Source: a virus (lineage: Duplodnaviria; Heunggongvirae; Uroviricota; Caudoviricetes). Taken from it: 35,687 nt of DNA. The position numbers and the translations under genes were made by a program. A model generated the notes under the pieces. That model was not told the DNA's origin and ran no database searches. It saw only the letters and a program-made list of their open reading frames with translations. This document shows, one piece after another, positions 3,499-35,687 of this stretch; the stretch's first letter is position 1; each line of letters opens with the position of its first letter. Location: the IMG/VR virus record IMGVR_UViG_2690315992_000010, one strand, 5' to 3'.

Positions 3499-3519
3499 AA
3501 TTTAATTGCGTTAGAGAGT

Positions 3520-4063: not shown

Positions 4064-4072
4064 ATTACCCCC

Positions 4073-4420: not shown

Positions 4421-4458
4421 GTTATACCCCCATAAGATTCTATGAGGGTATTTATGGA

Positions 4459-5142: not shown

Positions 5143-5143
5143 G

Positions 5144-5314
5144 TTAGCCCCCTAATAACGAAAAGACCCCCGCCAGTGTCCTTAGCAATTGTTCATCCAC
5201 GGTCATAGCCGGGAGTTCAAGCCCAAAGGACGTTAGCAGAGGTCTAATAGCTACGTTATAAGTGAGGGCGACAATCAAGAGATAACCAAAATATTTCTTA
5301 AGTTTATTCTTCAT
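5144..5314 (-). CDS. small membrane protein, 56 aa (one predicted TM helix)
   Basis: Internal ATG at 5314 preceded by GGGGTGA RBS; hydrophobic stretch YFGYLLIVALTYNVAI. Track ORF 5144-5386 starts further upstream and overlaps the preceding gene. Confidence 0.35.
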   Translation of the reverse strand: MKNKLKKYFGYLLIVALTYNVAIRPLLTSFGLELPAMTVDEQLLRTLAGVFSLLGG

Positions 5315-5333
5315 ATATTCACCCCTTTTATTA

Positions 5334-5612
5334 TTATTTTTGTCTGAGTAAATCGATAACTTGGTCAAATTTAGCGTCCATCGCAACCACTTTCTTCTCT
5401 ATACCGTGTAGTGTTTGTTCCATTTGGTAAACACGTTCAGCAATCTGAGTATGGTTATTCTGCATCGTCTCAAACTTCTGGTTTAACAATGCGTCGCTGG
5501 ATTCCAATTTAGATAACCTATTTTCTGTTGCTAATTGATTTCGGTGGAGTCTCCAAAGCCCACCGCAAATTAAGGCGATAACACCGATACCGCCATATAT
5601 AATTTCAGTCAT
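5334..5612 (-). CDS. membrane-anchored coiled-coil protein (N-terminal TM, spanin-like topology)
   Basis: N-terminal hydrophobic IIYGGIGVIALICGGLW followed by heptad-like helical region; sits immediately downstream of J-like gene. Confidence 0.45.
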   Translation of the reverse strand: MTEIIYGGIGVIALICGGLWRLHRNQLATENRLSKLESSDALLNQKFETMQNNHTQIAERVYQMEQTLHGIEKKVVAMDAKFDQVIDLLRQK

Positions 5613-5717
5613 TACGCCCCCGATATTTTTATATAGTTTAATGGCAAAATTATTTAGATAAAAATAATCCCGCCTAACTCAAAAGAATTAAGCGGGATTA
5701 ATTATTAGAATTAAATT

Positions 5718-8700
5718 TTAAGAAACAGAAATACCAGTAGCGGCTTTCTTAGTTACCATTACCGTTAGATCGCTGATATATGCACTTGGGGTATAGTTGT
5801 TAACGCCCTTACAGTAAACTTCAAAAGTCATTGTTACTGCCCCGTGTCCGGCTGGCATGTCAATAACTCCACTGTACATACAGCCAGAAGTTGCAGTGCG
5901 ATCATATAGAACACCACCATTTTTCTTAACGATTAGTCGGCAAGTATCCCAATGATCGCTACTTTCGCCACGACGAACAGACCCGTTATGATGAATCGCT
6001 GGAATCACTATTTGGCGATCGAATGGATGATCATCTTCGACCCTTACAGTGATTGCACCATCAGGCCAGTTTGGTTGGCGATGCGGGAAACTCCTACCAA
6101 CCACTTTCACGAAGTCACCACGCACCTGATTAGCATCAAGCATACCCAAAATGCGGCAACTTGAATTAATCGTTACGTTGTTCATTTCGCCGGAATCAGC
6201 CACCAAATGACCACGAATATTAGCGTATCTAAAATGGCAAGTGCCATCTTTGCCAATATACCATCCATCGTTACCATTCCAGTTATAAGACTGGATATAG
6301 TTACCAATTTTAGCATTATCGATAGAGCCATCAATAATATGACCTGTTCCGATCTGTGCGTGCTGGATGTGAGCACCGTTAATCTGGGCTGTGCCGATCT
6401 TAGCCGTAGTGATACTAGCATCACTAATCTGGGCGGTTCCGATCGCTGCATTACGAATCATTGCATTATCGAGATAAACCTTGTTATCTTCGATACCAAA
6501 CGGACAAACTTCTGATCCGTCTTGTGGAGCTACCGCGATTTTATCAGCCGTAAAGATGATTCTCGTCGGTTGTGCTGGATCGTTGGTTGCGCTCATATGA
6601 ATACCAGCCACGCGACCATCTGCATTAACTGCCAGATTATATTTGCTGTTAATGGTTCCCTTCAAAGCATCGATTTTTACATCTGCTTCCTGATTCACAC
6701 CAGCAATCTTACCATCCATTTCTACCCGAACTTGATCAATCTTGCTTGCGCTTGCTGCCTCACTGGTAGCAATTGCTTGTTTCAGGGTAGTAGCGGATGC
6801 GCTAACTTCTTTGGTGATATCGCCTTTCAGTTCAGCTTTAACCTGATCAATCTTAGTTGCGCTGGCTTGCTCACTGGTAGCAATCAGACTCTTGAGAGTA
6901 TCGGCTGAGGCTTGGACCGTCTGCCCTGTCTCGGTAGTAATCTGTTTATGCATTGCATCAATCTTAGCATCGGCATTAGCGCCAGCTTGAGCAATAGCAT
7001 CCGCGATGGTTTCATCTAAGCGATCTTGTAAACCGATCAGGTCTTCCAGTGCTTCTTTGTCCTGATCGTCCCAACTAATGGTAGATTTCATTTGCATGAA
7101 ATACGGTTCGGACCAAACAGCATCATCCATACCGAAAATATCGTAGTGAGCACCACGGATATAATAATCACCGTCAGCAATATCAAAGGAAGTATGGCTA
7201 ACACTATTCGTGCTTACTGCCCTTGCATCTGAGAAAGTGTTATCGGTTGCATACTGGATGATTGACCCTGCATAGTCATGTTCTACGTCATCCGCCCAGC
7301 TAACAAACGCAGTATTAAAGCCACCACGCGCACTAAAACCTTTCATTGGCTTATGCTGTGGGTTAATAGCCACTAAACGCGCTGGGGCGCTTACAGAGTT
7401 GTTATAACCCTTAGCGGATACTTCTACCGTCAATTCACGGGAAAGGCCGTTAAACTGGTTCATATCGAGCGTATAGGTCCATGATTCAGGATCGCGGGTA
7501 CGGTACTGAATAGACTTACCAGCCTTGTTAGTTACCTTGATAATGTAGGCTTCAAACAGGTCACTAAACTTGTTAGTTTCACCGTTGATAACCACATCTA
7601 AGGCTTGCTGATTGTCCCATTCAATAATCAGATCGTTGCCTTCGAAAGTACCAGGTGAACTACCCTGATTTTTGATGCGGATCGCTGGCGTAGGCAGTTC
7701 ATAGGTAACTTCTGGATTCTGGTTAACCAATTCCACCCATTCGGAACGAGCAATAATACCGAAAGCACAAACGCGGTAATCGTAGGAACGATCTTTAGCC
7801 AGTGCATTGATATTGAAAATTTGCTGTGAAGTCTGTCCCAGCTTAATCCAGTTAGGTGATCCACTCACTTTGTAATCAATCTGGAAACCGTAGCGGTTGA
7901 AATCTTCCGGTGCATCCCATGTCAAAGTTACGTTTTTACCGTGGATTGTCTCACCAGTTGCCTTAATTCTGAAATTAGTCGGTTTCTGTACTGTCATTGA
8001 ATCCGGTAAACCAGTAGGTCTATTGTCTGGATTCGCCGCATAGTTCAGGTCAGTATAAACCTGAGAATTATATTCTGTGGCGGTGATAGTCATCATCCCA
8101 GCAATACCAGAATCAATAGAGCGATCAATTGCAGTAATACGCCAAAGTGAATTATTCAGTTTTAATTCATCATAGGTTACGCTAATAACATCCCAAACTT
8201 CGGCAGTGAATGCGTCAGTAGTCATAAAGCTGATAACCTGAGTGATACGAGATTTATTTCGTTCTACACTCGCGAGTTTATCAATCTGGGCTTTAGACTT
8301 AACAAAACGATATTCAATATCTTTAGCGATAATTCGACCATCTTGACGAATAGTAGCATCGTTTTCAGCATCAGCCGGATAACGTAGCATTTGCTCGGAA
8401 TAGTCGATTGATGGTTCTTGATACATCGCGTTAATGGTATTGAAATAACCGTTAGTGCCACCTGTTTTCAGTGATACCTTACCCATCATGATATTGTCTT
8501 CATTGAAGGTATGCTTAACAATATCAGGAGCATCCAGTTTCAGGGTAATTCTTCCGAAGGATTCGAACATCACCCCGCCGAAAGTCTGCATGAGATTAGT
8601 TAAGTTCTCTTTAAAGCTGGCGTTCGGATCACATGCACCGTTTGAATGCAAATCCATCTGGCGTACTTGTTTACGTACTTTCAGGAATGAATCAACGTTG

Positions 8701-25181: not shown

Positions 25182-27086
25182 TTAGAACGATGTTACCCAG
25201 CTACGGCCTCTATTTGGGCGTCTGGCGATGTTTTTACGTTGTGGTCGTGTGATTGGCTTATTTTCTTCGATTTGCTCGTCAGATTGCGATTTAGGAGCTT
25301 CTACGGATTCTTCTGGTTCACGGTTCAAACTATCTTTGATGGCTTCGAGTTTTTCCCATGACATTTTATTGAGTACATGGCGATAACTAGCCACCGCATA
25401 GGTTAGGCAGTCCAAGCCCTCGTTGCGTTGCTGACCAACTTTTACCCAACGTGTGGTATTACCCTGCCGTTTCAACTGTTCAGATAGCAATTGCTCGCAG
25501 TAGTCATCAGGAACGTCACCAATCTGGAAGACCGTATGAGGATCGCTGTCTCTCAAGTTCCGGTTAATCATTTCACGGATCATCGTCTTAAGGTTGTTTA
25601 CGCCCAGAATTTTAAGGGTAAAACCGCCCGTTCTTGTGTCTTTTACCGGAAGGATTGGAGCATCAACATTACTTGCGCCCTTAATGGCGCATAGATTTTG
25701 CCACCTAGTGCAAAAGCGGTAGATCACTTGCGTAGCTCGTCCGTTTGATGAGTCCACGAAAGCGGATAGCATCGGGATTCGTTGACCGGATCGGGTATAG
25801 AATTTTGCTTTCAGGAAGTTGTAAAGCTGGTCATATGCTGGTGATTCGTGGCGTTCGCAGTTCACATCATAGAATGATCGGTGATCAACTACGCATATCC
25901 CTTTACGAGAGATACCCAGCAAGGTAGATTCCAGACGGTCTTTTTGCTGGTCAACTCCACCTACCAGAGCCAAAACATCATCAGGAATATTATCTAAGCT
26001 AATGTCAGTTTTCAGCGTTTCCAGTTCGTCGGCTGTGCGGTCTTCGTTAAGATCATCGAAGGTTTCACCGAGCACCACATTATAGAACGTTGCCAGCGAC
26101 ATATTCGCGTAGCTATCAGCAAAGTCCACCACACACGCACGGATAGAACTAAACGGAGACATAAGGCGGTTAGCATGAAAACCGATTACTTCCGCATTTG
26201 GTTCGGTGGCGACCCATTCTCCCTGAGCAACAGCACGGAGGCGATCTGGTTCTGACCAATCAGTTTCACATGACGGGCAACGGTAAACGGCTGTGTCTGG
26301 ATTCGGCAGTGATTTACCATTGATTACATGCCAATCAAAGAATACTCTACTCCATTCCATTACGTGTTTGTGTCCGCAATGCTGGCAAACGACGTGGTAT
26401 TTTCTTTTATCCGAGAGTTCCCATTGTTGGTTTATCGCCCCATCCCGCGAAGTTGGAGTAGAAGCAATTACGATCCTTGCATCATCACCGAAAGTGGTTG
26501 CGCGTTGTTCCGCTAGCTGGATCGGGTTCCCTTCGTCTGACTCATCAGCCGCATCAACTTCATCAAGAATAATCAAAGGTAGTGTTTTACCGCGAAGATG
26601 TGATGGACTATTCAACGACATGAAATACATGAATGATCCGTTACGAAGCTGAATAATCGATGAGTTGTTAACGGCATTGCGATCTGACTTGTCGGTGATC
26701 ATCGCCTTTAATTCTGGGGTTGCCTCTAATACTGGCTTCACCTTACCCGCGATCCAGCTATTCAACTCGCGGACGTTTGCTTGCAAAACACCTATATTAG
26801 TGGGGTTGCTGGCGATCCTATGAAAGATAATACCGTTTAGCACAAGAGTTTTACCCAACTGCGCCGAGCACTTTAGCACAATTTTTCGCCTATCTTCGGT
26901 GATCGCGTCCATCATCCCACGTTGGAAAGGATGCAATTTAATTAGCGATCCGGCTTTAACACCATCGGTTGCAACTACATTAGCCTCTACCCATTCGCTA
27001 GGTTTCATGGCTTTAGGTGGGCGAATTGCAGCAGAGATATTTCTGAGAATCTTTTTTAATTTTGCCTTATTAGAAATCAGTTTCAT
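25182..27086 (-). CDS. terminase large subunit (GpA family)
   Basis: 634 aa; Walker A-like KCSAQLGKT, IASTPT motif, Cys-rich zinc-finger-like segment (CQHCGH...CPSC), size similar to lambda gpA; GAGGGTAA RBS before ATG 27086. Confidence 0.8.
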   Translation of the reverse strand: MKLISNKAKLKKILRNISAAIRPPKAMKPSEWVEANVVATDGVKAGSLIKLHPFQRGMMDAITEDRRKIVLKCSAQLGKTLVLNGIIFHRIASNPTNIGVLQANVRELNSWIAGKVKPVLEATPELKAMITDKSDRNAVNNSSIIQLRNGSFMYFMSLNSPSHLRGKTLPLIILDEVDAADESDEGNPIQLAEQRATTFGDDARIVIASTPTSRDGAINQQWELSDKRKYHVVCQHCGHKHVMEWSRVFFDWHVINGKSLPNPDTAVYRCPSCETDWSEPDRLRAVAQGEWVATEPNAEVIGFHANRLMSPFSSIRACVVDFADSYANMSLATFYNVVLGETFDDLNEDRTADELETLKTDISLDNIPDDVLALVGGVDQQKDRLESTLLGISRKGICVVDHRSFYDVNCERHESPAYDQLYNFLKAKFYTRSGQRIPMLSAFVDSSNGRATQVIYRFCTRWQNLCAIKGASNVDAPILPVKDTRTGGFTLKILGVNNLKTMIREMINRNLRDSDPHTVFQIGDVPDDYCEQLLSEQLKRQGNTTRWVKVGQQRNEGLDCLTYAVASYRHVLNKMSWEKLEAIKDSLNREPEESVEAPKSQSDEQIEENKPITRPQRKNIARRPNRGRSWVTSF

Positions 27087-27129
27087 GTAATTACCCTCAT
27101 TACGAAATATGAAGGTATTTATTAAATTG

Positions 27130-27158
27130 TTGATATTTTGATAAATACGGGTATTAAG
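27130..27158 (+). promoter_or_regulatory. candidate sigma70 promoter for rightward gene 27175 (divergent from terminase)
   Basis: TTGATA - 16 bp - TATTAA upstream of AAGGGGGGG RBS. Confidence 0.3.
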
Positions 27159-27174
27159 ATTTAAGGGGGGGTGT

Positions 27175-27780
27175 ATGCTAATTAATCAGCAACAAAGAGA
27201 TGCATTAGAATTAGCCTTTTCTTGTTGTACCGATCATGAATATCGTTTGCCAGTTAAGCACCATCACAAGAAGACTGATTACACAACATCTGGCTTTAGT
27301 CGTGAGGAAGCTAAACAGATTTTAATCGAGTTGTATCGCGATCATGGGTATACCGATATTCATAACTTCTTTAAGAAGCATCGTACATCACAGACAGAGT
27401 TTAATAGAGTTCGTGAATGGTTTGATTTTGACATTAAGCGATTCTATCGAGTAGATGACGGTCCTATCTATCGGTTGCAGTGGACACCGATTAGGGAAGT
27501 GCTTAAACAGAAGAGATTGAATCATGCCATTACACGCTATCGTAATGTGGCTTTTAAGAAAGGCTATGGTGATTCAAGGGAATTGTTTGTAGAACTCGCT
27601 AACGTGCGATATAGCCACTATTACAGGAATCCTAAAGAGTTCTTCGAAGTGCTGCGCAAGGTTGATATTAGTCGGGGTACATATTATTCACGGTTGAAGA
27701 AGTACGGGATTAAGGCAGAGTTCTTTATGTCGGTTGACGATGGAGAACTTTTTCCGATAAAATGTAAGTCCTCTAAATAA
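27175..27780 (+). CDS. helix-turn-helix protein of unknown function (paralogue family member 1)
   Basis: 201 aa; contains FSREEAKQILIELYRD and C-terminal ISRGTYYSRLKKYGI segments that recur in the two small proteins at 27810 and 31471. Confidence 0.5.
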   Translation: MLINQQQRDALELAFSCCTDHEYRLPVKHHHKKTDYTTSGFSREEAKQILIELYRDHGYTDIHNFFKKHRTSQTEFNRVREWFDFDIKRFYRVDDGPIYRLQWTPIREVLKQKRLNHAITRYRNVAFKKGYGDSRELFVELANVRYSHYYRNPKEFFEVLRKVDISRGTYYSRLKKYGIKAEFFMSVDDGELFPIKCKSSK

Positions 27781-27809
27781 AGGTGAACATTCACTTTAAT
27801 TTGGAGAAA

Positions 27810-28043
27810 ATGACTATGACTACTAAAGCTACTCGCGGTCGCCCTGCCCGTTTTAACGCTGAACAGATGGCTGATATTGCCTACGCTTATTATACAGCGG
27901 ATCGTGGTAAGGAAGCGAAAGAACAGATTCTTAGTGAACATGGGATCTCAATCGCCCAATTCTATAAGAATATGAAGAAGTTGGACATTAAATTCTATGT
28001 TCAGATCGGTGATGGTCAGATCGTAGAAGCAACAGGTTTTTGA
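27810..28043 (+). CDS. small helix-turn-helix DNA-binding protein (paralogue 2)
   Basis: 77 aa from ATG 27810 (GGAG RBS); RGRPARFNAEQMADIAYAYY...ISIAQFYKNMKKLDI. Track start 27783 is GTG. Confidence 0.5.
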   Translation: MTMTTKATRGRPARFNAEQMADIAYAYYTADRGKEAKEQILSEHGISIAQFYKNMKKLDIKFYVQIGDGQIVEATGF

Positions 28044-28058
28044 GTTTTGATTCTCTTT

Positions 28059-28082
28059 GCCACTCTTCGGAGTGGCTTTTTT
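28059..28082 (+). terminator. intrinsic terminator
   Basis: GCCACTC-ttcg-GAGTGGC followed by TTTTTTG. Confidence 0.7.
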
Positions 28083-28203
28083 GTATGTAAAACAATCGGC
28101 GCAAAACTGCGCTCATTTCTAAGTTGAGTCCAAATCTGGACTGATCTATAGATGCATCCAAATCTGGAGGGATGCGCTTAAAGTTCAGCGCATCTACAGA
28201 TAC

Positions 28204-28228
28204 AAAAAAGCCCCTGAAATTCAGGGGC
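28204..28228 (-). terminator. intrinsic (bidirectional) terminator after Rha operon
   Basis: AAAAAA-GCCCCTGAA-at-TTCAGGGGC-AAAAATT; its right half is the TTCAGGGGCAAAAAT motif that forms the iteron array at 30.7-30.9 kb. Confidence 0.65.
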
Positions 28229-28236
28229 AAAAATTA

Positions 28237-29070
28237 TTACAGTCCGAAGACTTCCAGAGAGCCAGCATTCTGACGAATCAGCAAAGCAGTGTTATTAATG
28301 ATTGCTCGTGAGTTATTCGGCTGTGGCAATTTCAAAGTTGCGGCCTTTTCTTCTTCAAGCAATCCGAGTTTTACGAGATGCGGGATAGCATCAGCAGTGA
28401 ACTCGATCTGACCGTGTGCCGACATACGAGCGAACATATAGCCAGGAGGAAGCAGATCATAGCCTTTAGGCTTACCAGAAGCATCCAGACGACGCTCAAG
28501 AACACCAGCAGCACATAAACCTTTCAGAATCATTTGTACCTTCGTAGAGCCTCGTTTTTCGCCTAATAAGCGGCTAAGACTGTGTGCATCAATAGCTTTA
28601 CGGATATGAAGATCAACTAATTGTTCTTTTTCTTGAATCAGTTGTTCGTTTGCGGCTTCTAATTCCATTGCCTCACGAATCCAATCGAGCTTAGTCATGT
28701 TTGCGTATGGGTTGACTTGCTGAGAACGCAGTTTTTCATTTTCTTCTTTCAGTCGTTTCCATTCCTGAATAACAACCATTCGACGCTTAACATCGTAACC
28801 AGTGACAAGAGTCAGAGTCATTTCTTCGTCTAGTTGATATTCGTTTTGTTCGCGTCCGTATTGGTCAAAATAGATGACGCGAAACTTCGCGTGATCTTCA
28901 TAACCTAGAGCATTCAACATCTTAGTTATATCAACTTTAACTTTGTGGTGTTCTTTTCCGGTAAATTCAGCGATCTGACGAGAAGACATGGTCAGTGGTT
29001 TGGTGTTATCAACAACCAGAGACACGGAAGCAGTTTTAACAGCAGTATTCATAGTAGTAACAGTATTCAT
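28237..29070 (-). CDS. Rha-family phage regulatory protein / antirepressor
   Basis: N-terminal LTMSSRQIAEFTGKEHHKVKVDI matches the Rha-domain signature; ~150-aa C-terminal antirepressor-like domain. Confidence 0.65.
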   Translation of the reverse strand: MNTVTTMNTAVKTASVSLVVDNTKPLTMSSRQIAEFTGKEHHKVKVDITKMLNALGYEDHAKFRVIYFDQYGREQNEYQLDEEMTLTLVTGYDVKRRMVVIQEWKRLKEENEKLRSQQVNPYANMTKLDWIREAMELEAANEQLIQEKEQLVDLHIRKAIDAHSLSRLLGEKRGSTKVQMILKGLCAAGVLERRLDASGKPKGYDLLPPGYMFARMSAHGQIEFTADAIPHLVKLGLLEEEKAATLKLPQPNNSRAIINNTALLIRQNAGSLEVFGL

Positions 29071-29159
29071 AGTAAAAATTCCCCTTAAACGGTTTAGTGA
29101 TTTGGTCCTCCTAGTTCCGGCATCTCAACCGGAACAATTTTATTTATGATAGAAATTTA

Positions 29160-29492
29160 TTACCAATCGATTTCTACTTGGTCTTCTTCATAATAAGGAA
29201 TCGCATATTCATAACGCCAATTTTCGATGATTTCACGTTCTTCATTAGTAAGAAGGTGATTGTTAACTGGAGTCGCATTGTGATTACCAGCTTCGAATTG
29301 CTCGCGAACTTCCAGCATTGCATGAATACCAGTTAAGGTCATCAGATCAAACGGAACATGCATACTACGGGAGATAGTTTCACGGGATACACCCCAATCA
29401 TTTTCTACATGGCTAGGGGTTACAGAAACGGTTTTGCCGGAGATTTTAACAGTCCAGTCATACAGGGATTTAGTGATGGTAAATTCTTTCAT
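29160..29492 (-). CDS. hypothetical protein
   Basis: 110-aa ORF with AGAGGA RBS, first gene downstream of promoter at 29549-29577. Confidence 0.5.
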   Translation of the reverse strand: MKEFTITKSLYDWTVKISGKTVSVTPSHVENDWGVSRETISRSMHVPFDLMTLTGIHAMLEVREQFEAGNHNATPVNNHLLTNEEREIIENWRYEYAIPYYEEDQVEIDW

Positions 29493-29548
29493 GTTACATC
29501 CTCTTTACAAATCTAGGTCAAATAGGTTCAAAGTTGTCAAGCGCGATA

Positions 29549-29577
29549 ATCATAAAAAAGTCAGAAATTTTTGTCAA
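29549..29577 (-). promoter_or_regulatory. candidate sigma70 promoter (leftward) overlapped by palindromic operator
   Basis: Minus-strand -35 TTGACA (29577-29572), 17-bp spacer, -10 TATGAT (29554-29549). Palindrome TTGTCAA-tacccc-TTGACAA at 29571-29590 overlaps the -35. Confidence 0.4.
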
Positions 29578-29612
29578 TACCCCTTGACAAGACGCCAAAG
29601 GGTTGACCTAAC

Positions 29613-30071
29613 TTACAGCATATCTAAGCCTTCATCGTAACCGTAGAAGCCACCGTGAGAAGAGAAAGCGATTGGTGCGTAGTCTTCGTCTTCCTCATCT
29701 TGTTCTGGGGCTTCCTGAGCGGTTTCTTTACCGTAATTAAACATTGCTTCATCCAGTTCACGAAGAGTCAAGAAGCTACCCAGGTCAATGTCACCGGAAC
29801 GGACTTGAAACGGCAGATCATCACGAACAATAATTGCTGGTAGATTCTGGTACTTTAAGCGTTCTTCATCGGTGAAGACGTTAACAACAATGGTCGGCTT
29901 CTTATTACGGCAAAACGCATACCATGCACTAGAGAAATGGGATTCATCAGAGTTGAAAAGGATGTTATAACCACGTTCACGGAACATCTTCATTAACTTG
30001 TCATTGTGGAAGCTATCAGAATCCAGACCCAGAAGGATAAAAGGAGTAGTGGTAGTCATCTTGTGGTTCAT
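29613..30071 (-). CDS. hypothetical protein with acidic C-terminal tail
   Basis: 152 aa, GAGGA RBS; C-terminus EAPEQDEEDEDYAP; no domain recognised. Confidence 0.5.
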   Translation of the reverse strand: MNHKMTTTTPFILLGLDSDSFHNDKLMKMFRERGYNILFNSDESHFSSAWYAFCRNKKPTIVVNVFTDEERLKYQNLPAIIVRDDLPFQVRSGDIDLGSFLTLRELDEAMFNYGKETAQEAPEQDEEDEDYAPIAFSSHGGFYGYDEGLDML

Positions 30072-30713
30072 AGTGGAAATCCTCTAAAAGAAAGTGAATC
30101 AAACAAATTACACTAGTATTTATAACGAGAATTTTTTATCTATTTGGAAGGGATTGGTATTCAGTCGGGCATAGCCCTCCTTCATAGATTTTGATTAAAT
30201 CATCATCAAAACGAAGAAGTATCTTTAGAATATAAGAATCTTTCTTTCGAAGAAAGAATAATCAGGAAGCAATTTCAGCAACCGCAGGTTGCGATCCCGA
30301 AGGGATAACCAATACCTTTCTAGAAAGTGATTGTTACTCACTTCGTTCGTTTACTAGAATCAGTTATCATCTAGTATTAAAATCCCTTTCTAAGAAAATC
30401 CTTTCAAAAGTGATTCTCGATGCCACGCAGTGGCGTCGCAGACGTTTGAGAGTGAGCGAAGCGAGCGAGCAAACTAGTTAATTCCTTCTAAGACCATCTA
30501 GTATCATCTAGTTTAAATTAGTTGTTACTAGAAGTAATTGGTTAGCGCTACGCGCAGTCGGGCAAAGCCCTCCTAATATCTTTTTGGTTATTTTTGGTTT
30601 TACACATGAGCGTAGCGAATGTGTTATATAATATCTATGCACGCCCGATTCCCCGTTTTTACCCCTCACTAAGTTAATGTTTTATAAAGAGTTTTTCTTA
30701 CCAATCCTTTTCG

Positions 30714-30906
30714 GGGGCAAATTTCAGGGGCAAAAATTAGATTTTAAGGGGCAATTATTGGCATTTCAGGGGCAAAAATGAGGGGCAAAATCACTGTTTC
30801 CCAGAATTTCAGGGGCAAAAATAGTGGGTTTCAGGGGCAAAAATGGGATAGTGGAATCTTGGGTATTTTGGTTCGGGGGCAAAATTCAGAATTTCAGGGG
30901 CAATTC
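30714..30906. repeat. array of ~9 direct GGGGCAA(A/T) iterons (5 copies of full TTTCAGGGGCAAAAAT)
   Basis: Core starts near 30715, 30727, 30749, 30770, 30782, 30811, 30832, 30876, 30897; spacings mostly 12 or 21 bp; non-coding. Confidence 0.6.
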
Positions 30907-30993
30907 CCATCAAATATTTTGATAGAAAATTCTTGTATATTATTTAATCAAAAAATCACCAAAAAGTGGCGTAAGTTAATGATTTAAAAAGAA

Positions 30994-31019
30994 TTGTCAA
31001 AAGGTCTCCGTGCTATAAT
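30994..31019 (+). promoter_or_regulatory. candidate extended -10 promoter (rightward)
   Basis: TTGTCAA at 30994-31000 and TGcTATAAT at 31011-31019. Confidence 0.35.
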
Positions 31020-31099
31020 AGGTTATAAAGGTTGATAATCCTGATCTACCATTTTCAAACAAAAATTTTGATAGTCATTTCTCGCTTAGGTCAAGTGTA

Positions 31100-31128
31100 T
31101 TGACAACTGTCAAGGATTATTTTATACT
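31100..31128 (+). promoter_or_regulatory. candidate strong sigma70 promoter (rightward) with palindromic -35 region
   Basis: TTGACA (31100-31105), 17-bp spacer, TATACT (31123-31128); -35 lies in palindrome TTGACAACTGTCAA. Confidence 0.5.
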
Positions 31129-31263
31129 TTTTCTCACTGGTGGGGGTTGAAATTTTCTAAACAGTCCCCATATAGATGATAAGCAAGAATTTCCACGTTA
31201 TAAATACATGTGTGAAATGATTGTTCACTTCTGAAAATCTCCTGATCCACTGCTAATTCATAC

Positions 31264-31291
31264 AGCACTGGTTAGATATACAGTGCTTTTT
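31264..31291 (+). terminator. intrinsic terminator-like hairpin (possible end of a ~160-nt small RNA)
   Basis: AGCACTG-gttagatata-CAGTGCT followed by TTTT. Confidence 0.4.
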
Positions 31292-31415
31292 CGGTTGAAT
31301 ATTGTACGAATTGATTAATAATTAATCTTCTCTTTAGCAATTCGTGCTCCCACTGATCGGATATACAGTGGTTTTACAGGGTTTTCTGAAAATCATTTTA
31401 TAAATACAAGTGTTC

Positions 31416-31436
31416 AGAGCGAAATGCTCTTTTTTA
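31416..31436 (+). terminator. attenuator hairpin immediately upstream of gene 31471
   Basis: AGAGC-gaaat-GCTCT followed by TTTTTT. Confidence 0.45.
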
Positions 31437-31470
31437 AGAAATTATTAATCCACATGTGAGGAATCGACTG

Positions 31471-31650
31471 ATGGCTAGACCTGTTAAGTTCACTCGTGAA
31501 ATGATTGTTGATATTGCTAAACGCTTTTACAGCGACACTGAGCGAGGCGGGGAAAACTTCTTTAAGAAGGAAGGAATTGATAGAAGCGGATTCTACAAGC
31601 TAATGAAGAAATACGAAATTCAGGTAAAGATTAACGTTCAAGTTTGTTAA
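31471..31650 (+). CDS. small helix-turn-helix DNA-binding protein (paralogue 3)
   Basis: 59 aa from ATG 31471 (GAGGA RBS); ARPVKFTREMIVDIAKRFY...IDRSGFYKLMKKYEI parallels the 27810 protein. Track start 31456 is GTG. Confidence 0.5.
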   Translation: MARPVKFTREMIVDIAKRFYSDTERGGENFFKKEGIDRSGFYKLMKKYEIQVKINVQVC

Positions 31651-31765
31651 TCCACTTTCACTGAGAATTATATGATGGCTTTAAAAAAAGAAAAAGCCTC
31701 CCTTGTTGCAGCAAAGGAGGCTTGAAATGAACAATTAAAACTAACTTTCTACAGGAGTATTTATA

Positions 31766-32710
31766 ATGTTATTTTCCGCTAACTTTTTCACTAACGAAGT
31801 AACCAACGCTAAAGCAGTTATCAAATTTGGCACCGAAGCAAACAAGAAGATTCAGCCGAAAGTTGTTGTTCATGTTTCCTTTGCGCAGCAGAAATCCGCT
31901 TTCGCTGGCTTTAAAGCACATCGTGAAGCACTGATCGCGGCTGGCTTTGGTGTTGACGGTAAACTGCCTAACGGCATTCGTAAAGCAATCGACCGCGTTA
32001 AACCTGCTAAAGACGTTGCAGTAGACCACATCGTTACTTTCACCGTTAAGAACTCTTCTGAACTGTTCCACCTAGTGATTGCTGGTGATACTGCTATCGT
32101 TTCCGCTCCTAACATGGATTTTCAGGATACCGCTGATTGCAACATTACCTTTGGTCGTCGTAAAGAAGTTACCGGAAAAGCTAAACTGAACTTCACCAAA
32201 TCCGGCAATCCTTACTTTGCTGTATTCTTTAACAGCCACGCTACTGAGAAAGAAGTAGTAGAACTGGTTGCATATGAAGGTGAAGAAAAAGCACGTATTG
32301 AATCTTGCGACGCTTTCGTAGAACTGGAAGCACAGGTTAATGCTGTTTCTCCGGTTGCTGTTGAAGATCGTTTCTCTGCACTGGAAGCACAGATCGCAGA
32401 ACTGAAAGCTGCGCTGGAAGAAAAAGACCAGATCATCGAAGCACAGAAAGCTGAGATTGAAGAACTGAAAGCTAAAGAAGTTGCTCCGGTGGCAGTAGTT
32501 GAAAATGCGGCTGATGAGGCCGCAAATGATGAAGTAGAAGTGAAAATCGATGTGATGCGTGATCCGATGGCTGCACTGCAATTGCTTCGTTCTTTTAAGG
32601 GCAAATCTCATTTTTCTAGTGATGCGGTAGACGAGGAAGAAGAACAGAAACGCAATGTTGCAATGCTTCATGATGAAATGTACGGTACTAACTTTTCTTA
32701 CTGCCAATAA
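31766..32710 (+). CDS. hypothetical protein, apparently highly expressed (N-terminal globular part, C-terminal Ala/Glu-rich coiled-coil-like region)
   Basis: 314 aa; consensus AGGAG RBS 8 nt before ATG; codon usage strongly skewed to CTG/CGT/GGT/GAA/AAA/GCT; bracketed by terminators. No family recognised. Confidence 0.6.
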   Translation: MLFSANFFTNEVTNAKAVIKFGTEANKKIQPKVVVHVSFAQQKSAFAGFKAHREALIAAGFGVDGKLPNGIRKAIDRVKPAKDVAVDHIVTFTVKNSSELFHLVIAGDTAIVSAPNMDFQDTADCNITFGRRKEVTGKAKLNFTKSGNPYFAVFFNSHATEKEVVELVAYEGEEKARIESCDAFVELEAQVNAVSPVAVEDRFSALEAQIAELKAALEEKDQIIEAQKAEIEELKAKEVAPVAVVENAADEAANDEVEVKIDVMRDPMAALQLLRSFKGKSHFSSDAVDEEEEQKRNVAMLHDEMYGTNFSYCQ

Positions 32711-32714
32711 AAAA

Positions 32715-32732
32715 GGGACTCCGAAGAGTCCC
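32715..32732. terminator. bidirectional intrinsic terminator
   Basis: AAAAAA-GGGACTC-cgaa-GAGTCCC-TAGTAAGTTT; stronger T-tract on minus strand. Confidence 0.55.
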
Positions 32733-32806
32733 TAGTAAGTTTAGGTTAGGTTTGCACAACAAAGATGAACATAATGCTACATTATTCTTTAAAGCCAGAA
32801 AAATAA

Positions 32807-32824
32807 CCGCCTCTTTCGAGGCGG
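32807..32824 (-). terminator. intrinsic terminator (minus strand)
   Basis: CCGCCT-ctttcg-AGGCGG with minus-strand T-tract (TTATTTTTCT). Confidence 0.5.
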
Positions 32825-32981
32825 GAGGATTAATACTCAATCTATACTTGTTATGTTTTTATGTTGTATAGATCCTGACTATGAAAACACTGTACTGGAG
32901 TGTGTTTTATGGCTTTTAATCGGGAATCCTCAAAGAAGATCCCCTGTTAATAACCATAAGGAGAAAAGGCAGATTACACTA

Positions 32982-33155
32982 TTATTTAGTATCCTTTTTA
33001 CAGCAACTAAAAAGAATAAACAAAAAGAAGCATACCCAGCCGTAAGGCGTACCGATTAGAAATTTGAAAAACACCACCAGCGATATAAAAATCAATTTAA
33101 TGCCAGCGACGATAGTCAAAAACAGCAGAGTAGCAAAGTAGACAAAAAGATCCAT
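32982..33155 (-). CDS. small hydrophobic membrane protein, ~57 aa (two predicted TM segments)
   Basis: ATG ~33155 with AGAGGA RBS; MDLFVYFATLLFLTIVAGIKLIFISLVVFFKFLIGTPYGWVCFFLFILF...; not in ORF track. Confidence 0.25.
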   Translation of the reverse strand: MDLFVYFATLLFLTIVAGIKLIFISLVVFFKFLIGTPYGWVCFFLFILFSCCKKDTK

Positions 33156-33208
33156 AGATAATCCTCTTTGAAAACGACCATCATCTATAGTTCAATTCAT
33201 CGATTTAA

Positions 33209-33310
33209 TTAATTATACTTGAAAGCGTTACACAAAGTAGAAATGCCAATATGTGCCAGTGAATATACGATAGTTAATCCTACAGCCAGATAAATCAAAA
33301 ATTCAACCAT
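33209..33310 (-). CDS. small hydrophobic peptide, ~33 aa
   Basis: ATG ~33310 with GAGGA RBS; MVEFLIYLAVGLTIVYSLAHIGISTLCNAFKYN; not in ORF track. Confidence 0.2.
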   Translation of the reverse strand: MVEFLIYLAVGLTIVYSLAHIGISTLCNAFKYN

Positions 33311-33408
33311 AGGTAAATCCTCAAATAAGAAAAAGGTTAGCGGGGGATGTTCTCCCCCGTAGGCGTTGACCCATTCAACACCCTTCACATATATTTAGTA
33401 TCTAATTT

Positions 33409-33966
33409 TTACGACACATCAAATTCATCATCTTCTTCTGGTTCTTGTTCTTCCGGTTCATCCATTAATGGTAATTCTTCTTCCTCGTCTTCTCCCAAAT
33501 CTGCATTTTCGAACAAGTCCCCTACTTCATTTAAACGACGCTCGATGATCTCCCTTAGCTTATTCTTCAATGTTTTCTGGTCAGTTGCAGATTCGAGAAT
33601 TTCTAAAGCGTCGATTGTGGCGATCTGCAAAATAGTCTGTTTCACTTTCCCGCAGTATTCCGCTAGTTGCTGTTCTACATAACCGACAGGAATCAGGAGA
33701 TTCATTTTTTCCTGGTTCTCTCGTTCGGCTGCATCTGCCATTGCTCTTTCTCTGCGGAGACGTTCTTGATCAATCGCTTCTTTGATTGAAGTTTGTTTAA
33801 GTGGGTTAATTACGTTCTTTAGCACCCAATCGCAACCTTCCTTTGCTGGAACACGCCTCTTATTGGTATTGTAAGGTAGTCCCCTTTCTAACCATCGCTT
33901 ACCGCCACCATTCAATGTATAACCATATAAACGGGAAATTTCTGTAAGGGTTAATTCTTCTTTCAT
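33409..33966 (-). CDS. terminase small subunit (Nu1-like) candidate
   Basis: N-terminal HTH segment LTLTEISRLYGYTLNGGGKRWLERGLPY resembles the Nu1 DNA-binding domain pattern; central coiled-coil; strongly acidic C-terminus; GGAGGA RBS; palindromes and GC-rich site just upstream. Confidence 0.5.
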   Translation of the reverse strand: MKEELTLTEISRLYGYTLNGGGKRWLERGLPYNTNKRRVPAKEGCDWVLKNVINPLKQTSIKEAIDQERLRRERAMADAAERENQEKMNLLIPVGYVEQQLAEYCGKVKQTILQIATIDALEILESATDQKTLKNKLREIIERRLNEVGDLFENADLGEDEEEELPLMDEPEEQEPEEDDEFDVS

Positions 33967-33984
33967 TGGTTATCCTCCATTAAA

Positions 33985-34043
33985 TTTGCGTAATTTTATT
34001 TATTGGTTTTACGCAAAATCTAAGCGCCTAAAACGCGTTTTAG
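33985..34043. promoter_or_regulatory. palindromic protein-binding sites upstream of small terminase gene (cosB-like candidates)
   Basis: Inverted repeat TTTGCGTAA-N15-TTACGCAAA (33985-34017) and perfect 16-bp palindrome CTAAAACGCGTTTTAG (34028-34043). Confidence 0.4.
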
Positions 34044-34090
34044 CGAAGGGAAAGATCCAGTAATGGTAAGGGTTAGGAAGGGGGTTAATA

Positions 34091-34109
34091 GTCGCGTAGC
34101 GACCGCGCC
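34091..34109. other. candidate cos nicking region (GC-rich island with dyad symmetry)
   Basis: GTCGCGTAGCGACCGCGCC in AT-rich context ~125-145 bp upstream of the Nu1-like start, the position expected for cosN in lambda-like genomes. Inference only. Confidence 0.25.
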
Positions 34110-34324
34110 ATGAGTGAAGTGATCACGTTTTAAAATCTCACACGCACATCAAATACCGGGGTGCCGAAAACTCCCTTTATTTCATCCGTGGAACAGTACC
34201 TTTTTAATTTGTCAAGCATTAATTTCTTAATTTAATTACTAAATCTCATCCCAATAATTGAAAAAATATCAAAAATCAATAAAGTAAGCATCTAAAAGTC
34301 AGTCCATACCAAAAGAGGTATAAA

Positions 34325-35104
34325 ATGAAAAACATTATCGCTGCTATCGTGCTTTCTGCTACTGCTTTCGGTGCTGATGCTGCGTCCTTTGATTGCACTA
34401 AGGCTACTACCAAATCAGAGAAGTTTATTTGTGCTAACGAGTCTATCTCCGCACTGGATTCGAAACTTCATGAAGTATATGTTAAAGCTGTTAAGATTGA
34501 TCCATCTCTGAAACAAGAGCAACGCAACTGGAATAAAACTGTTCGTGATACAATGATCAATATCGGGCAGATTCAGCCACTGGAGGCTGTATACAACGCT
34601 CAAATCCAAAACTTGATGAATGTATTATCTAAAGAAGAAACCGCGTCAGAGAGCGATTCAGAGACTTCTGCGAAGGTTGAAGAAGAACAACCGAAACAGG
34701 AAGAAGTAAAGAAACTGAATGTTACCGCGATTTACGCATGTACTACAAAATTTACATGGAAAGTTATCGATGGTGAGGAAACAGAAGCTGTAAAAGATAA
34801 ACTCTACGGAAACAAAACTTTTGATAATAACGGCGGTAAACTTAAGATCAAAATGGTAGACGATGTTCCGGTATCTTTTGTGTATTCCGACAAGTATGAT
34901 GTTTATAAATCAAGTCTCAAGCCATCTAAAGAGAATCCAAACGCAATGGAAGGTAAATCCAAACAGGATACTATTGGACGTGTTAACACTTATAACATCT
35001 GGGTAAGCAAAAAAGGTGACATGCGTCTTGAAGTAATTGAACCAAAATTTGATTCTGAATATAAACACACTCAATTTGCATGTGACATGGTAGACGCAGA
35101 GTAA
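34325..35104 (+). CDS. secreted protein with DUF1311 / LprI-like N-terminal domain
   Basis: Signal peptide MKNIIAAIVLSATAFGADA; SFDCTKATTKSEKFICANESISALDSKLHEVY matches the conserved Cys-containing DUF1311 signature; AGAGG RBS. Confidence 0.55.
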   Translation: MKNIIAAIVLSATAFGADAASFDCTKATTKSEKFICANESISALDSKLHEVYVKAVKIDPSLKQEQRNWNKTVRDTMINIGQIQPLEAVYNAQIQNLMNVLSKEETASESDSETSAKVEEEQPKQEEVKKLNVTAIYACTTKFTWKVIDGEETEAVKDKLYGNKTFDNNGGKLKIKMVDDVPVSFVYSDKYDVYKSSLKPSKENPNAMEGKSKQDTIGRVNTYNIWVSKKGDMRLEVIEPKFDSEYKHTQFACDMVDAE

Positions 35105-35336
35105 GAGGTGAAATGATGCAATTCAATAGCATGAAGATTACTCAAAAATGGTGGGATGCGATGAAAGCTAACCACCAGAACGATATTAATTAAGTAACAT
35201 TTTAGATATACAGCACCCAGCTAACAGATCACCTTTTATGGATTTCATTATAACCCCTTTGATCTGGAAACTATGTTAATTAGTTGATTTCTAAGCCTTG
35301 TCCTTGTGATGGGGCTTTTTATTGCAAAATTTTTAG

Positions 35337-35687
35337 TTATTTTGGGTTGACTACATTCGGGTTGCCAATTCGCCAGGCTAACTCTTGCTGAGTGATTTCT
35401 GACTGTAAAAAAGCATTTAACAGCAATACTTTAGAGGCGACGCTCAAAGGTACTTCAATAAAGTGATCATGACTATTTAATGGCGAAGGTAACGGGATAA
35501 GCTCGTTATCTTCAAAATAAAAATCAAATGCGGTCAGTAAAGCATCTTTTGCCGCTTCCATCGCTTCAGCGACAGTTTCGCCCTGCGTCAACGCTTCAGG
35601 GATATCCACAAAAGAAACCATATAACCGCCTTCCGGCGCGGGTGTAAGAGTGACGGGATAACGCATAATTTCGACTGTCTCTCGCAT
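35337..35687 (-). CDS. hicB: HicB-family antitoxin, N-terminal domain only; C-terminal DNA-binding domain apparently truncated at junction with phage-like DNA
   Basis: MRYPVTLTPAPEGGYMVSFVDIPEALTQGETVAEAMEAAKDALLTAF... recognised as HicB N-terminal domain (recalled as near-identical to E. coli HicB; not verified). ORF ends ...ITQQELAWRIGNPNVVNPK* inside what should be the first helix of the HTH. Base composition and codon usage look more host-like here. Confidence 0.55.
   Translation of the reverse strand: MRETVEIMRYPVTLTPAPEGGYMVSFVDIPEALTQGETVAEAMEAAKDALLTAFDFYFEDNELIPLPSPLNSHDHFIEVPLSVASKVLLLNAFLQSEITQQELAWRIGNPNVVNPK

What the first reader, a model, noticed from the sequence alone, without database searches (positions are those of the whole stretch)
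29534..31113. Recurrent TTGTCAA/TTGACAA half-sites forming palindromes over promoter -35 boxes
TTGTCAA at 29534-29540, the palindrome TTGTCAA-tacccc-TTGACAA at 29571-29590, TTGTCAA at 30994-31000 and the palindrome TTGACAACTGTCAA at 31100-31113 all coincide with candidate promoters (another copy sits at about 34211 upstream of the DUF1311 gene). This looks like an operator set for a dimeric repressor that occludes -35 elements, i.e. an immunity or early-gene control circuit.
Basis: seen in the sequence. Interest (0 to 1): 0.55.

Follow-up and report, generated by a model that had tools for sequence, protein, structure and literature searches.

The report
Conserved TTGAC boxes around prophage promoters
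In an uncharacterised E. coli prophage, some of these TTGACA-like words are ordinary promoter -35 boxes and others are extra, strongly conserved copies that probably bind a still unidentified regulator, which is an ordinary kind of phage control region.

Summary
Two are the -35 hexamers of near-consensus sigma-70 promoters: P_A (minus strand, 29577-29549, drives the 110-aa and Rha-like genes) and P2 (plus strand, 31100-31128). Four others (29534, 29584, 31108, 34209) have no -10 partner yet are almost invariant in about 33 distinct E. coli relatives. Three of them persist in every Salmonella-type relative and the fourth in all but one, although the flanking DNA there is only 52-58% identical. 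The copy at 30994 is neither conserved nor placed as a -35. At P2 the conserved unit is TTGAC-N4-GTCAA with a free centre, centred near -28.5; this is a published FNR-family box shape. At P_A the boxes sit at about +2..+9 and -41..-48, next to a conserved GC-rich stem-loop, giving a PeSL-like promoter/terminator cassette. E. coli members also carry three exact copies of CTTGACA-N13-TTGACCTA. The window holds the whole prophage, so a phage repressor cannot lie outside it, and no CI-type gene is recognisable. The binder is unidentified. Candidates are the Rha-like winged-helix protein (lost together with all the boxes in a Proteus relative), p201/p59, and host FNR. Verdict: a real cis-regulatory set, operator reading plausible but unproven, an ordinary kind of element.

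The parts
29549..29577 (-). Promoter P_A: -35 TTGACA (29577-29572), 17-bp spacer, -10 TATGAT (29554-29549). Inferred start near 29542. Drives the 110-aa gene (29492-29160) and the Rha-like gene (29070-28237).
   Evidence: 11/12 match. Both hexamers are conserved in 33 distinct relatives. The same -35 plus TATCAT/TAACAT is kept in Salmonella-type relatives.
29534..29541 (-). Box b: CTTGACAA (TTGTCAAG on the plus strand) at about +2..+9 of P_A. No -10 partner.
   Evidence: One variable column of 8 in 33 relatives. The 28-29 nt gap to the -35 box is kept in all architectures, including Salmonella.
29583..29590 (+). Box b': CTTGACAA, inverted relative to the -35 box and 6-7 nt from it (about -41..-48 of P_A). 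Partly inside the stem-loop.
29514..29521 (-). Box a: TTGACCTA, 19 bp downstream of box b. Together they form unit 1, CTTGACA-N13-TTGACCTA.
   Evidence: One variable column in E. coli relatives. Absent in Salmonella-type relatives.
29603..29610 (+). Box a': TTGACCTA, 19 bp from box b' (unit 2). Also the outer 3' arm of the stem-loop, pairing with the -35 box.
   Evidence: Present in L120 and L122, altered in L121, absent in L116 and L119.
29572..29608 (-). Imperfect GC-rich stem-loop just after the stop codon (29613-15) of the 152-aa gene. Inner stem is ACCCCTTGAC / GCCAAAGGGT.
   Evidence: -24.9 kcal/mol for the 86 nt that contain it, z = -2.7. A stem is kept with different arms in the relatives: CCCCC/GGGGG or ACCCCTTG/CAAGGGGT.
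31100..31128 (+). Promoter P2: -35 TTGACA (31100-05), 17-bp spacer, -10 TATACT (31123-28). The palindrome TTGAC-AACT-GTCAA (31100-13) is centred at about -28.5.
   Evidence: 11/12. 12 variants all keep TTGAC-N4-GTCAA and the 17-bp spacing, with 9 different N4 words.
31087..31094 (-). Distal TTGACCTA box of unit 3 (31113-31087).
   Evidence: Weakly conserved: GGTCAA changes to GATCAA, GATCAT or GGTCAT.
34209..34216 (-). CTTGACAA (TTGTCAAG on the plus strand). These are the last conserved bases of the backbone before the variable cargo, about 245 bp upstream of the TerS-like gene (33966-33409).
   Evidence: kept whatever the downstream gene is. Kept in four of five Salmonella-type relatives, absent in L121 and lost in Proteus. 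No -10 partner.
30994..31000 (+). TTGTCAA next to promoter P1 (extended -10 TGCTATAAT, 31011-19). Not a -35 and not conserved, so probably not part of the set.

Best explanation
The window is a complete, about 35-kb E. coli prophage. The TTGACA-like words belong to its two main control regions.

Shown:
- Two words are the -35 hexamers of strong sigma-70 promoters, P_A and P2.
- The other conserved copies (29534, 29584, 31108, 34209, plus the TTGACCTA boxes) are not promoters, yet are as constrained as the promoter hexamers.

Inferred:
- They are binding sites for a sequence-specific helix-turn-helix or winged-helix regulator.
- At P2, a dimer on TTGAC-N4-GTCAA (centre about -28.5) would cover the -35 and shut off the rightward operon. 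That operon comprises a long leader, p59 and the iteron-linked 314-aa protein.
- At P_A, boxes at +2..+9 and -41..-48 bracket the core promoter and would repress or tune the operon that carries the Rha-like (anti-repressor-type) gene.
- The adjacent stem-loop insulates P_A from read-through coming from the 152-aa gene.

The binder is not identified. My ranking is a phage protein first: the Rha-like 277-aa protein, which has a coiled coil and two winged-helix-like domains, then p201/p59. Host FNR for the P2 box comes next.
For: - Promoter assignment.
- Constraint on the non-promoter boxes in 33 distinct E. coli relatives: 2/16 and 2/16 variable columns against 43/73 (p = 8e-4 each). The intra-unit spacing never changes.
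- Five divergent relatives (three from Salmonella assemblies, two from read-archive assemblies of unnamed origin; p201 50-66% identical) keep b, the -35 box and b' with the same geometry. The three words are 20-21/21 identical while the rest of the region is 52-58% identical (p = 7e-5 to 2e-4).
- P2: TTGAC and GTCAA are invariant while the inner 4 bp take 9 forms. The site is kept in Salmonella even though the upstream flank is unrelated and the distance to p59 differs.
- The palindrome is dispensable for promoter function. The type II cassette and the Proteus P2 lack it but keep the -35 and -10. It is therefore an added regulatory feature.
- Correlated loss: the Proteus relative lacks the Rha-like operon and has lost the P2 partner half-site and the 34209-type box.
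- The bipartite unit occurs three times (p = 2e-8). In all of IMG/VR, multi-copy hits are confined to this family.
- TTGAC-N4-GTCAA is a documented FNR-family box, including one centred at -29 over a -35 (PMC1274295, PMC4974557).
Against: - No binding protein is identified. No protein allele covaries with presence or absence of the P2 palindrome: the same p59 allele occurs with both cassette types.
- The putative DNA-binding N-terminal domain of the Rha-like protein is the variable part, while the boxes are invariant.
- p201 is present in Proteus, where the boxes are absent.
- The sites differ in polarity and spacing, so a single symmetric dimer does not explain all of them.
- The -35/b' spacer varies between 6 and 7 nt.
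- Part of the conservation of b' and a' can be explained by the stem-loop.
- Region A as a whole is far more conserved than its neighbours and sits at mosaic junctions. Recombinational homogenisation, as in PeSLs, therefore contributes.
- The co-loss rests on one lineage.
- Transcription starts are inferred, not measured.
Confidence: 0.5

Rival explanations
1. Promoter/terminator cassette only, with no dedicated repressor. In this reading the words are -35 hexamers, spare -35-like sequences and arms of a stem-loop. Region A would be a PeSL-like linker: a strong sigma-70 promoter plus a GGGG/CCCC stem-loop ending at the Shine-Dalgarno sequence and start codon. It would be kept nearly identical because it is the homology patch where modules are exchanged and because the hairpin terminates read-through. 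The promoters would be constitutive or controlled elsewhere, for example by the three terminator-like hairpins in the P2 leader.
For: - Region A is 93-100% identical although the 152-aa gene is only 58-100% identical and the downstream gene is swapped exactly at its start codon.
- The hairpin with C and G runs overlaps or abuts the -35, and its arms change between lineages while a stem is kept.
- This matches the published PeSL architecture (PMC2839356).
- A true RB49-type PeSL-like segment lies 600 bp away.
- The 34209 box is exactly at a mosaic junction.
- The P2 leader carries hairpins followed by T runs.
Against: - Box b (+2..+9) and the TGTCAAG in the P2 spacer belong to no stem and to no promoter element, yet they are invariant, also in Salmonella-type relatives whose spacers have diverged.
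- In L116 and L119, b' lies in the loop and is still TTGACA.
- TTGAC/GTCAA at P2 would give only a 5-bp AU-rich stem.
- Region A is single-copy per element and is never found in another context in 5426 E. coli genomes, unlike dispersed PeSLs.
- The hairpin lacks an adjacent U tract and was not called as a terminator.
Confidence: 0.3
2. The P2 palindrome is a host FNR site. TTGAC-N4-GTCAA keeps the TTGA...TCAA core of the E. coli FNR consensus TTGAT-N4-ATCAA (my knowledge of that consensus). FNR bound at -28.5 would repress the rightward early/replication operon in the anaerobic gut and so link prophage behaviour to oxygen. The region A words would then be unrelated promoter or hairpin elements.
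For: - The same word is published as an FNR-family motif: HcpR wyTTGACnnnnGTCAArw, and an Anr box TTGac-N4-gtCAA centred at -29 over a -35.
- A host factor would explain why no phage gene covaries with the site and why the half-sites are identical in E. coli and Salmonella phages.
Against: - Both half-sites deviate from the E. coli consensus at position 5.
- There is no full FNR-type site in region A or at 34209, although these share the extended word TGTCAAG.
- The Proteus relative and the type II cassettes lack the site although their hosts have FNR.
- No FNR position weight matrix or ChIP data could be applied here.
Confidence: 0.15
3. Chance recurrence of an AT-rich, -35-like word in AT-rich intergenic DNA.
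For: The window-wide count is at expectation: 10 against 7.8 for the 7-mer and 18 against 23.9 for TTGACA. The copy at 30994 behaves like a chance copy.
Against: - Intergenic clustering has p = 3.7e-4 and the exact bipartite unit p = 2e-8.
- Column-wise conservation and cross-genus retention argue against chance.
Confidence: 0.03

Closest known systems
PeSLs (promoter-early stem-loop cassettes) of RB49/phi1-type T4-like phages (PMC2839356, PMC4122927)
   Same: Region A (29496-29612) is a conserved intergenic block of about 117 bp. It holds a near-consensus sigma-70 promoter and a stem-loop built on C and G runs that abuts or overlaps the -35, and it ends at the Shine-Dalgarno sequence and start codon. 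Different genes are joined at its edges.
   Different: There is one copy per prophage and none elsewhere in E. coli genomes, not dozens per genome. The phage is temperate. No sequence similarity exists between region A and PeSLs; the RB49-like segment in the window is a different stretch, 30184-30265. Region A also has extra conserved TTGAC boxes that the PeSL model does not need.
CRP/FNR-family boxes of the form TTGAC-N4-GTCAA (HcpR; P. aeruginosa Anr box at katAp2)
   Same: The P2 site is a 5-N4-5 palindrome with the identical half-sites. It overlaps the -35 with its centre near -29, as reported for katAp2.
   Different: No CRP/FNR-family protein is encoded in the prophage at Pfam thresholds. 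There are only sub-threshold HTH_Crp_2 hits to an alternative N-terminal allele of the Rha-like protein. Binding by host FNR is untested. The E. coli consensus is TTGAT/ATCAA.
Classical phage and SOS operators that overlap core promoters (lambda/434 OR sites, LexA boxes)
   Same: The P2 site shows dyad symmetry, conserved half-sites with a free centre, and a position over the -35. Several related sites occur at two divergent control regions of a temperate phage.
   Different: No adjacent CI/Cro-type repressor gene exists. The sites are not copies of one operator, because polarity and spacing differ. Half-site and -35 hexamer are the same word. One promoter has an allelic cassette without the site.

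Membership tests
sigma-70 promoter -35 element | TTGACA-like hexamer 16-18 bp upstream of a TAnnnT -10, oriented towards a gene | tested here: met
   Met for 29577-72 (minus strand, TATGAT at 17 bp) and for 31100-05 (plus strand, TATACT at 17 bp). The spacing is kept in all relatives.
sigma-70 promoter -35 element | The same criterion applied to the other copies (29534, 29584, 30994, 31108, 34209) | tested here: not met
   No -10-like hexamer lies at 16-18 bp on the relevant strand in the window or in Salmonella-type relatives. The 30994 copy ends 14 bp from the -10 of P1.
Dimeric-repressor operator overlapping a promoter | Dyad symmetry with conserved half-sites, fixed half-site distance and an unconstrained centre | tested here: met
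   Met for P2: TTGAC-N4-GTCAA in 12 variants with 9 N4 words. Not met for 29571-90, which has reversed polarity and a 6- or 7-nt spacer.
Dimeric-repressor operator overlapping a promoter | Overlap with the -35, the -10 or the transcription start | tested here: met
   The P2 palindrome covers the -35. Box b lies at about +2..+9 of P_A. Positions are relative to inferred starts.
Dimeric-repressor operator overlapping a promoter | A cognate DNA-binding repressor encoded by the element (or a named host factor) that covaries with the sites | tested here: inconclusive
   No CI/Cro-type Pfam, PHROG or NCBIfam hit. There is no allele covariation. The only signal is co-loss with the Rha-like operon in one Proteus relative.
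Dimeric-repressor operator overlapping a promoter | Protein binding and repression demonstrated | not testable with these tools
   Needs footprinting and reporter assays.
CRP/FNR-family box | 5-N4-5 palindrome with a TTGA...TCAA core | tested here: met
   31100-13 and all type I and Salmonella-type P2 variants. The motif is published for HcpR and Anr.
CRP/FNR-family box | Bound by a CRP/FNR-family protein present in the cell | not tested
   Host FNR exists in E. coli (my knowledge). No position weight matrix, ChIP data or binding assay was available here.
PeSL-type promoter/stem-loop cassette | Consensus sigma-70 promoter plus an adjacent G/C-run stem-loop in an intergenic block of about 100 bp that ends at the Shine-Dalgarno sequence and ATG | tested here: met
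   compared with the description read.
PeSL-type promoter/stem-loop cassette | Mosaic junctions at the cassette edges | tested here: met
   The downstream gene is swapped exactly at its start codon (110 aa against the 48-64-aa family), and the upstream 152-aa gene is 58-100% identical.
PeSL-type promoter/stem-loop cassette | Many dispersed copies per genome | tested here: not met
   One copy per prophage: 53 places in 51 of 5426 genomes, all in this element. Only the boxes recur within the element, not the cassette.

The most novel reading that the evidence does not exclude
This prophage family would have no CI-type repressor at all. Its early promoters would be held down through -35-embedded TTGAC/GTCAA boxes. 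These would be read either directly by host FNR, giving oxygen-linked lysogeny control, or by the coiled-coil, double winged-helix Rha-like protein acting as the immunity factor. A host LexA box in the same leader (near-consensus in a Salmonella member) would supply the SOS input. That would be a switch built mainly from host regulators and interchangeable non-coding cassettes.
Probability: 0.15. Interest if true: 0.6.

Novelty: new member of a known kind. Interest (0 to 1): 0.35.

Why it matters
The sites themselves are a familiar kind of element: operator-like boxes on strong promoters inside a promoter/terminator cassette. Their value is practical. They mark the two control points of a prophage family found in about 1% of complete E. 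coli genomes and in Salmonella. In that family none of the regulatory, replication or immunity genes is recognisable. The conserved TTGAC-N4-GTCAA box, the bracketing boxes at P_A and the short list of candidate binders give a direct experimental way to find how such a CI-less phage maintains lysogeny.

Tried and rejected
- T5-like phage (first impression from the repeats): rejected. The terminase is gpA-type, the closest known phage is only 43% identical in TerL, and the element is a chromosomal prophage.
- The boxes as iterons of the 314-aa protein: rejected. The iterons are GGGGCAA, GTGTAGG, ACGGGGA or CTAGGGAT words that covary with that protein; the TTGAC boxes do not.
- p59 as an allele-specific binder of the P2 palindrome: no covariation.
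- The 110-aa protein as binder: it is replaced by an unrelated 48-64-aa family in many relatives that keep identical boxes, and its HTH-like motif is not conserved.
- The Rha-like N-terminal pRha domain as binder: it is the most variable part of the protein.
- Invertible promoter or MITE bounded by the inverted 27-bp units: every relative has the same orientation, and the inner 13 bp of the arms are unrelated.
- Divergent or tandem promoters using boxes b, b' or 31113-08 as a -35: no -10 in any lineage.
- RNA structure covariation for the stem-loop: the pairs are mostly invariant, with one compensatory pair and several disruptions, so the result is uninformative.
- Rfam: nothing relevant.
- PDB sequence searches for p201, p110, p152 and the Rha-like protein: nothing.
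- Genome-contig scans: no relatives among GTDB representatives.
- IMG/VR and metagenome scans with the p201 profile gave only close relatives.
- Resemblances recalled from memory were not pursued beyond inspection, because spacing or key bases do not fit: the sigma-32 and sigma-E consensus, TyrR box, RutR box, Pho box and IHF.
Full report
**What the window is**

The window is an E. coli prophage of about 35 kb with 41% G+C. The exact 152-aa protein of the window is encoded on NCBI assembly contigs of 212-326 kb; three of the four shown carry it beside genes with the Pfam domains of benE, ydcN, ydcP, yncJ and hicA/hicB (the gene names are my reading), and the window's right end (35337-35687) has a HicB-like antitoxin domain. 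In another strain the same element splits ycdX, and its first gene starts about 40 bp from the junction. The window therefore holds the entire element.

The gene order is as follows:

| Coordinates (strand) | Gene or region |
|---|---|
| 1481-3175 (+) | large serine integrase |
| 27086 down to 3520 (-) | lysis, tail and head genes and a gpA-type terminase |
| 27175-28043 (+) | p201 and p75 |
| 29070-28237 (-) | Rha-like gene |
| 29492-29160 (-) | 110-aa gene |
| 30071-29613 (-) | 152-aa gene |
| 30072-31470 | 1.4-kb non-coding region |
| 31471-31650 (+) | p59 |
| 31766-32710 (+) | 314-aa gene |
| 33966-33409 (-) | TerS-like gene |
| 34325-35104 (+) | DUF1311 cargo gene |

Nothing in the element matches a CI/Cro repressor or a replication protein. 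Related DNA is present in 63 of 5426 complete E. coli genomes. No cultured phage is close; the best TerL match is 43% identical.

**Observation**

Window-wide the 7-mer is at expectation, 10 copies against 7.8. However, six of the ten copies lie in the 11.8% of the window that is intergenic (p = 3.7e-4).

Only two copies are -35 hexamers:
- P_A on the minus strand: TTGACA at 29577-72, 17 bp, TATGAT at 29554-49.
- P2 on the plus strand: TTGACA at 31100-05, 17 bp, TATACT at 31123-28.

Both match the consensus at 11 of 12 positions and are the two best promoter matches in the regions scanned, 1-5800 and 27000-35687.

The copies at 29534, 29584, 31108 and 34209 have no -10 partner in this phage or in its relatives. 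The copy at 30994 ends 14 bp before the conserved extended -10 TGCTATAAT (31011-19). Only 3 of 17 distinct relatives keep the word. I drop it from the set.

A stronger regularity was missed. CTTGACA-N13-TTGACCTA occurs three times exactly: two copies as an inverted pair symmetric about 29562 (the middle of the P_A spacer), and one copy over the -35 of P2. About 0.005 exact copies of the 12-base core TTGACA-N13-TTGACC are expected (p = 2e-8). A scan of all IMG/VR contigs for this 15-base pattern gave 69 stretches. Those with two or three copies all belong to this prophage family.

**Conservation at P_A**

I collected about 170 related loci. In 33 distinct E. coli versions of 29496-29612, each pair of non-promoter boxes has 2 of 16 variable columns. 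The remaining intergenic columns have 43 of 73 variable (p = 8e-4 each). The 13-bp gap inside a unit never changes length, although its sequence drifts.

Five more distant relatives are informative: three come from Salmonella assemblies and two from read-archive assemblies of unnamed origin, and their p201 is 50-66% identical. All five keep three words at P_A with the same geometry:
- box b, 28-29 nt downstream of the -35 box;
- the -35 box itself;
- box b', inverted and 6-7 nt upstream of the -35 box.

These words are 20-21/21 identical, while the rest of the region is 52-58% identical (p = 7e-5 to 2e-4). The distal TTGACCTA boxes are kept only in some of these relatives.

**Conservation at P2**

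All 12 sequence variants keep TTGAC-N4-GTCAA and the 17-bp spacing to the -10. The inner four bases take nine forms. In Salmonella the upstream flank is unrelated and the promoter sits at a different distance from p59, yet the site is intact.

The TTGTCAAG at 34209 is retained whatever cargo gene follows it, and in four of the five Salmonella-type relatives; L121 lacks it.

**What limits the operator reading**

1. The two palindromes have opposite polarity: GTCAA-N8-TTGAC at P_A against TTGAC-N4-GTCAA at P2. The P_A spacer is 6 or 7 nt. One symmetric dimer therefore cannot read both in the same way. TTGWCAA is itself a 7-bp near-palindrome, which inflates the apparent symmetry.

2. About half of the family carries a different cassette in place of 30905-31400. 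It has two tandem consensus promoters and no palindrome. Region A is in 51 genomes and the palindrome-bearing P2 cassette in 26.

3. No protein covaries with the sites.
   - The same p59 allele occurs with both cassette types.
   - The gene right after P_A is either the 110-aa protein or an unrelated 48-64-aa family.
   - The pRha domain of the Rha-like protein is its most variable part.

4. Part of the conservation has another cause. The sequence from the -35 box to TTGACC (29572-29608) forms an imperfect GC-rich stem-loop directly after the stop codon of the 152-aa gene: the 86 nt that contain it fold at -24.9 kcal/mol, z = -2.7. The relatives keep a stem there with different arms, CCCCC/GGGGG or ACCCCTTG/CAAGGGGT. 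Region A as a whole is 93-100% identical while its flanking genes are mosaic, with a junction exactly at the downstream start codon. This is the architecture described for PeSL promoter/stem-loop cassettes of RB49-type phages (PMC2839356). Region A differs in being single-copy and confined to this element.

**What still needs a binding protein**

- Box b at +2..+9 and the TGTCAAG inside the P2 spacer belong to no stem and to no promoter element.
- In L116 and L119, b' sits in the hairpin loop and is still TTGACA.
- The Proteus relative lacks the P_A/Rha-like operon. It has also lost the P2 partner half-site (TTGACAAAAAGCAAG) and the 34209-type box, while keeping the promoter itself. This correlated loss points to a trans factor tied to that operon, but it rests on one lineage.

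**Candidate binders**

- **Host FNR.** TTGAC-N4-GTCAA is a published FNR-family box: HcpR, and an Anr box centred at -29 over a -35. FNR is therefore a live alternative for P2.

**Mechanism I commit to**

Confidence is 0.5. Two of the words are -35 hexamers. The extra conserved boxes are operator-type sites.
- At P2 a dimer on TTGAC-N4-GTCAA occludes the -35 of the rightward operon.
- At P_A the boxes bracketing the core promoter repress or tune the Rha-like operon, and the stem-loop insulates it from upstream transcription.

The promoter assignment by consensus, the conservation and geometry, and the dispensability of the palindrome for the promoter are shown. Binding, the identity of the binder, the direction of regulation and the transcription starts are inferred.

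The rivals are a cassette-only reading (0.3), FNR at P2 only (0.15) and chance (0.03).

**Novelty and interest**

This is a new member of known kinds: operators over -35 boxes and promoter/terminator linker cassettes. A specialist would not be surprised by the sites. The setting is more interesting: a widespread prophage family with no recognisable repressor and an unusually modular non-coding control region. Interest is 0.35.

Noticed in passing
window 30709-30908 and 31766-32710; L020, L009 and L033; L019; L115 12830-13130: An array of 9-10 iterons (TTTCAGGGGCAAAAAT at 21-22 bp spacing) covaries with the downstream protein of about 314 aa. Relatives with a 333-aa protein have GTGTAGG repeats, one with a 337-aa protein has ACGGGGA repeats, and the Proteus relative (318 aa) has CTAGGGAT repeats. 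This is probably an origin/initiator (or centromere/binder) specificity module with no Pfam match.
   Followed up: partly
window 28210-28233: The iteron word reappears as an inverted repeat (GCCCCTGAAATTCAGGGGC followed by a T run). It forms the terminator after the Rha-like gene.
   Followed up: no
window 31267-31284 and 31352-31369; L116 13816-13835: Two ACTG-N10-CAGT palindromes lie in the P2 leader (0.31 expected). They resemble LexA boxes (15/20 and 13/20 matches to the consensus) and are each followed by a T run. A Salmonella relative has a near-consensus LexA box, TACTGTATGAATATACAGTA, in its P2 leader (between the iterons and P2), inside a TTGGCG-18-TATATT promoter. This suggests a possible direct SOS input.
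   Followed up: partly
window 30184-30265: This stretch is 78-88% identical to intergenic repeats of RB49, phi1 and JSE (Krischvirus, T4-like), that is, a PeSL-type early promoter segment. It is unexpected in a temperate siphovirus-like prophage.
   Followed up: partly
window 27175-27780 and 31471-31650: p201 is a tandem duplication of the 59-aa p59 domain (BLASTP E = 1e-6 and 4e-3). The model shows a three-helix bundle plus hairpin twice, so it is probably a bipartite DNA binder. It is conserved in the E. coli, Salmonella and Proteus relatives.
   Followed up: partly
window 30905-31400 versus L006, L003 and L117: The promoter-plus-leader block is an exchangeable non-coding cassette. An alternative allele has two tandem consensus promoters with GTGTAGG words and a different palindrome (AAATTGAT...ATCAATTT). 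No protein gene changes with it.
   Followed up: partly
window 31262-31292, 31349-31378 and 31416-31436: Three terminator-like hairpins, plus direct repeats (31201-25 with 31485-509; 31266-90 with 31351-75), lie between P2 and p59. Control may be by termination/antitermination or by a small RNA.
   Followed up: no
window 30116-30124 (-), 31199-31207 (+), 31399-31407 (+), 31757-31765 (-): There are four copies of TATAAATAC embedded in similar blocks of about 25 nt, without -35 boxes. One sits about 45 bp upstream of the 152-aa gene. The word equals the T4 late-promoter consensus (my knowledge). Its function here is unknown.
   Followed up: no
window 34091-34103: The palindrome GTCGCGTAGCGAC lies upstream of the TerS-like gene and is conserved in the Salmonella relative L116. 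It is a candidate cos or terminase recognition site.
   Followed up: no
window 3474-25120 (late genes): AAGGGGT(A) occurs 7-8 times. Six copies on the minus strand lie 5-7 nt before late-gene ATG codons, so it is the late-gene ribosome-binding site. Two more form a terminator palindrome at 3474-3495, and another copy lies in the spacer of the P_A palindrome.
   Followed up: yes
window 30162-30181 and 30555-30574: A 20-nt repeat, CAGTCGGGCAWAGCCCTCCT (a small GC hairpin), occurs twice in the non-coding region and is also present in relatives.
   Followed up: no
window 29613-30071: The 152-aa protein has a conserved acidic tail with aromatic residues (...EEDEDYAPIAFSS.GG.YGY.E..DML). The tail is kept in the Salmonella and Proteus relatives. 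It has no family match.
   Followed up: no
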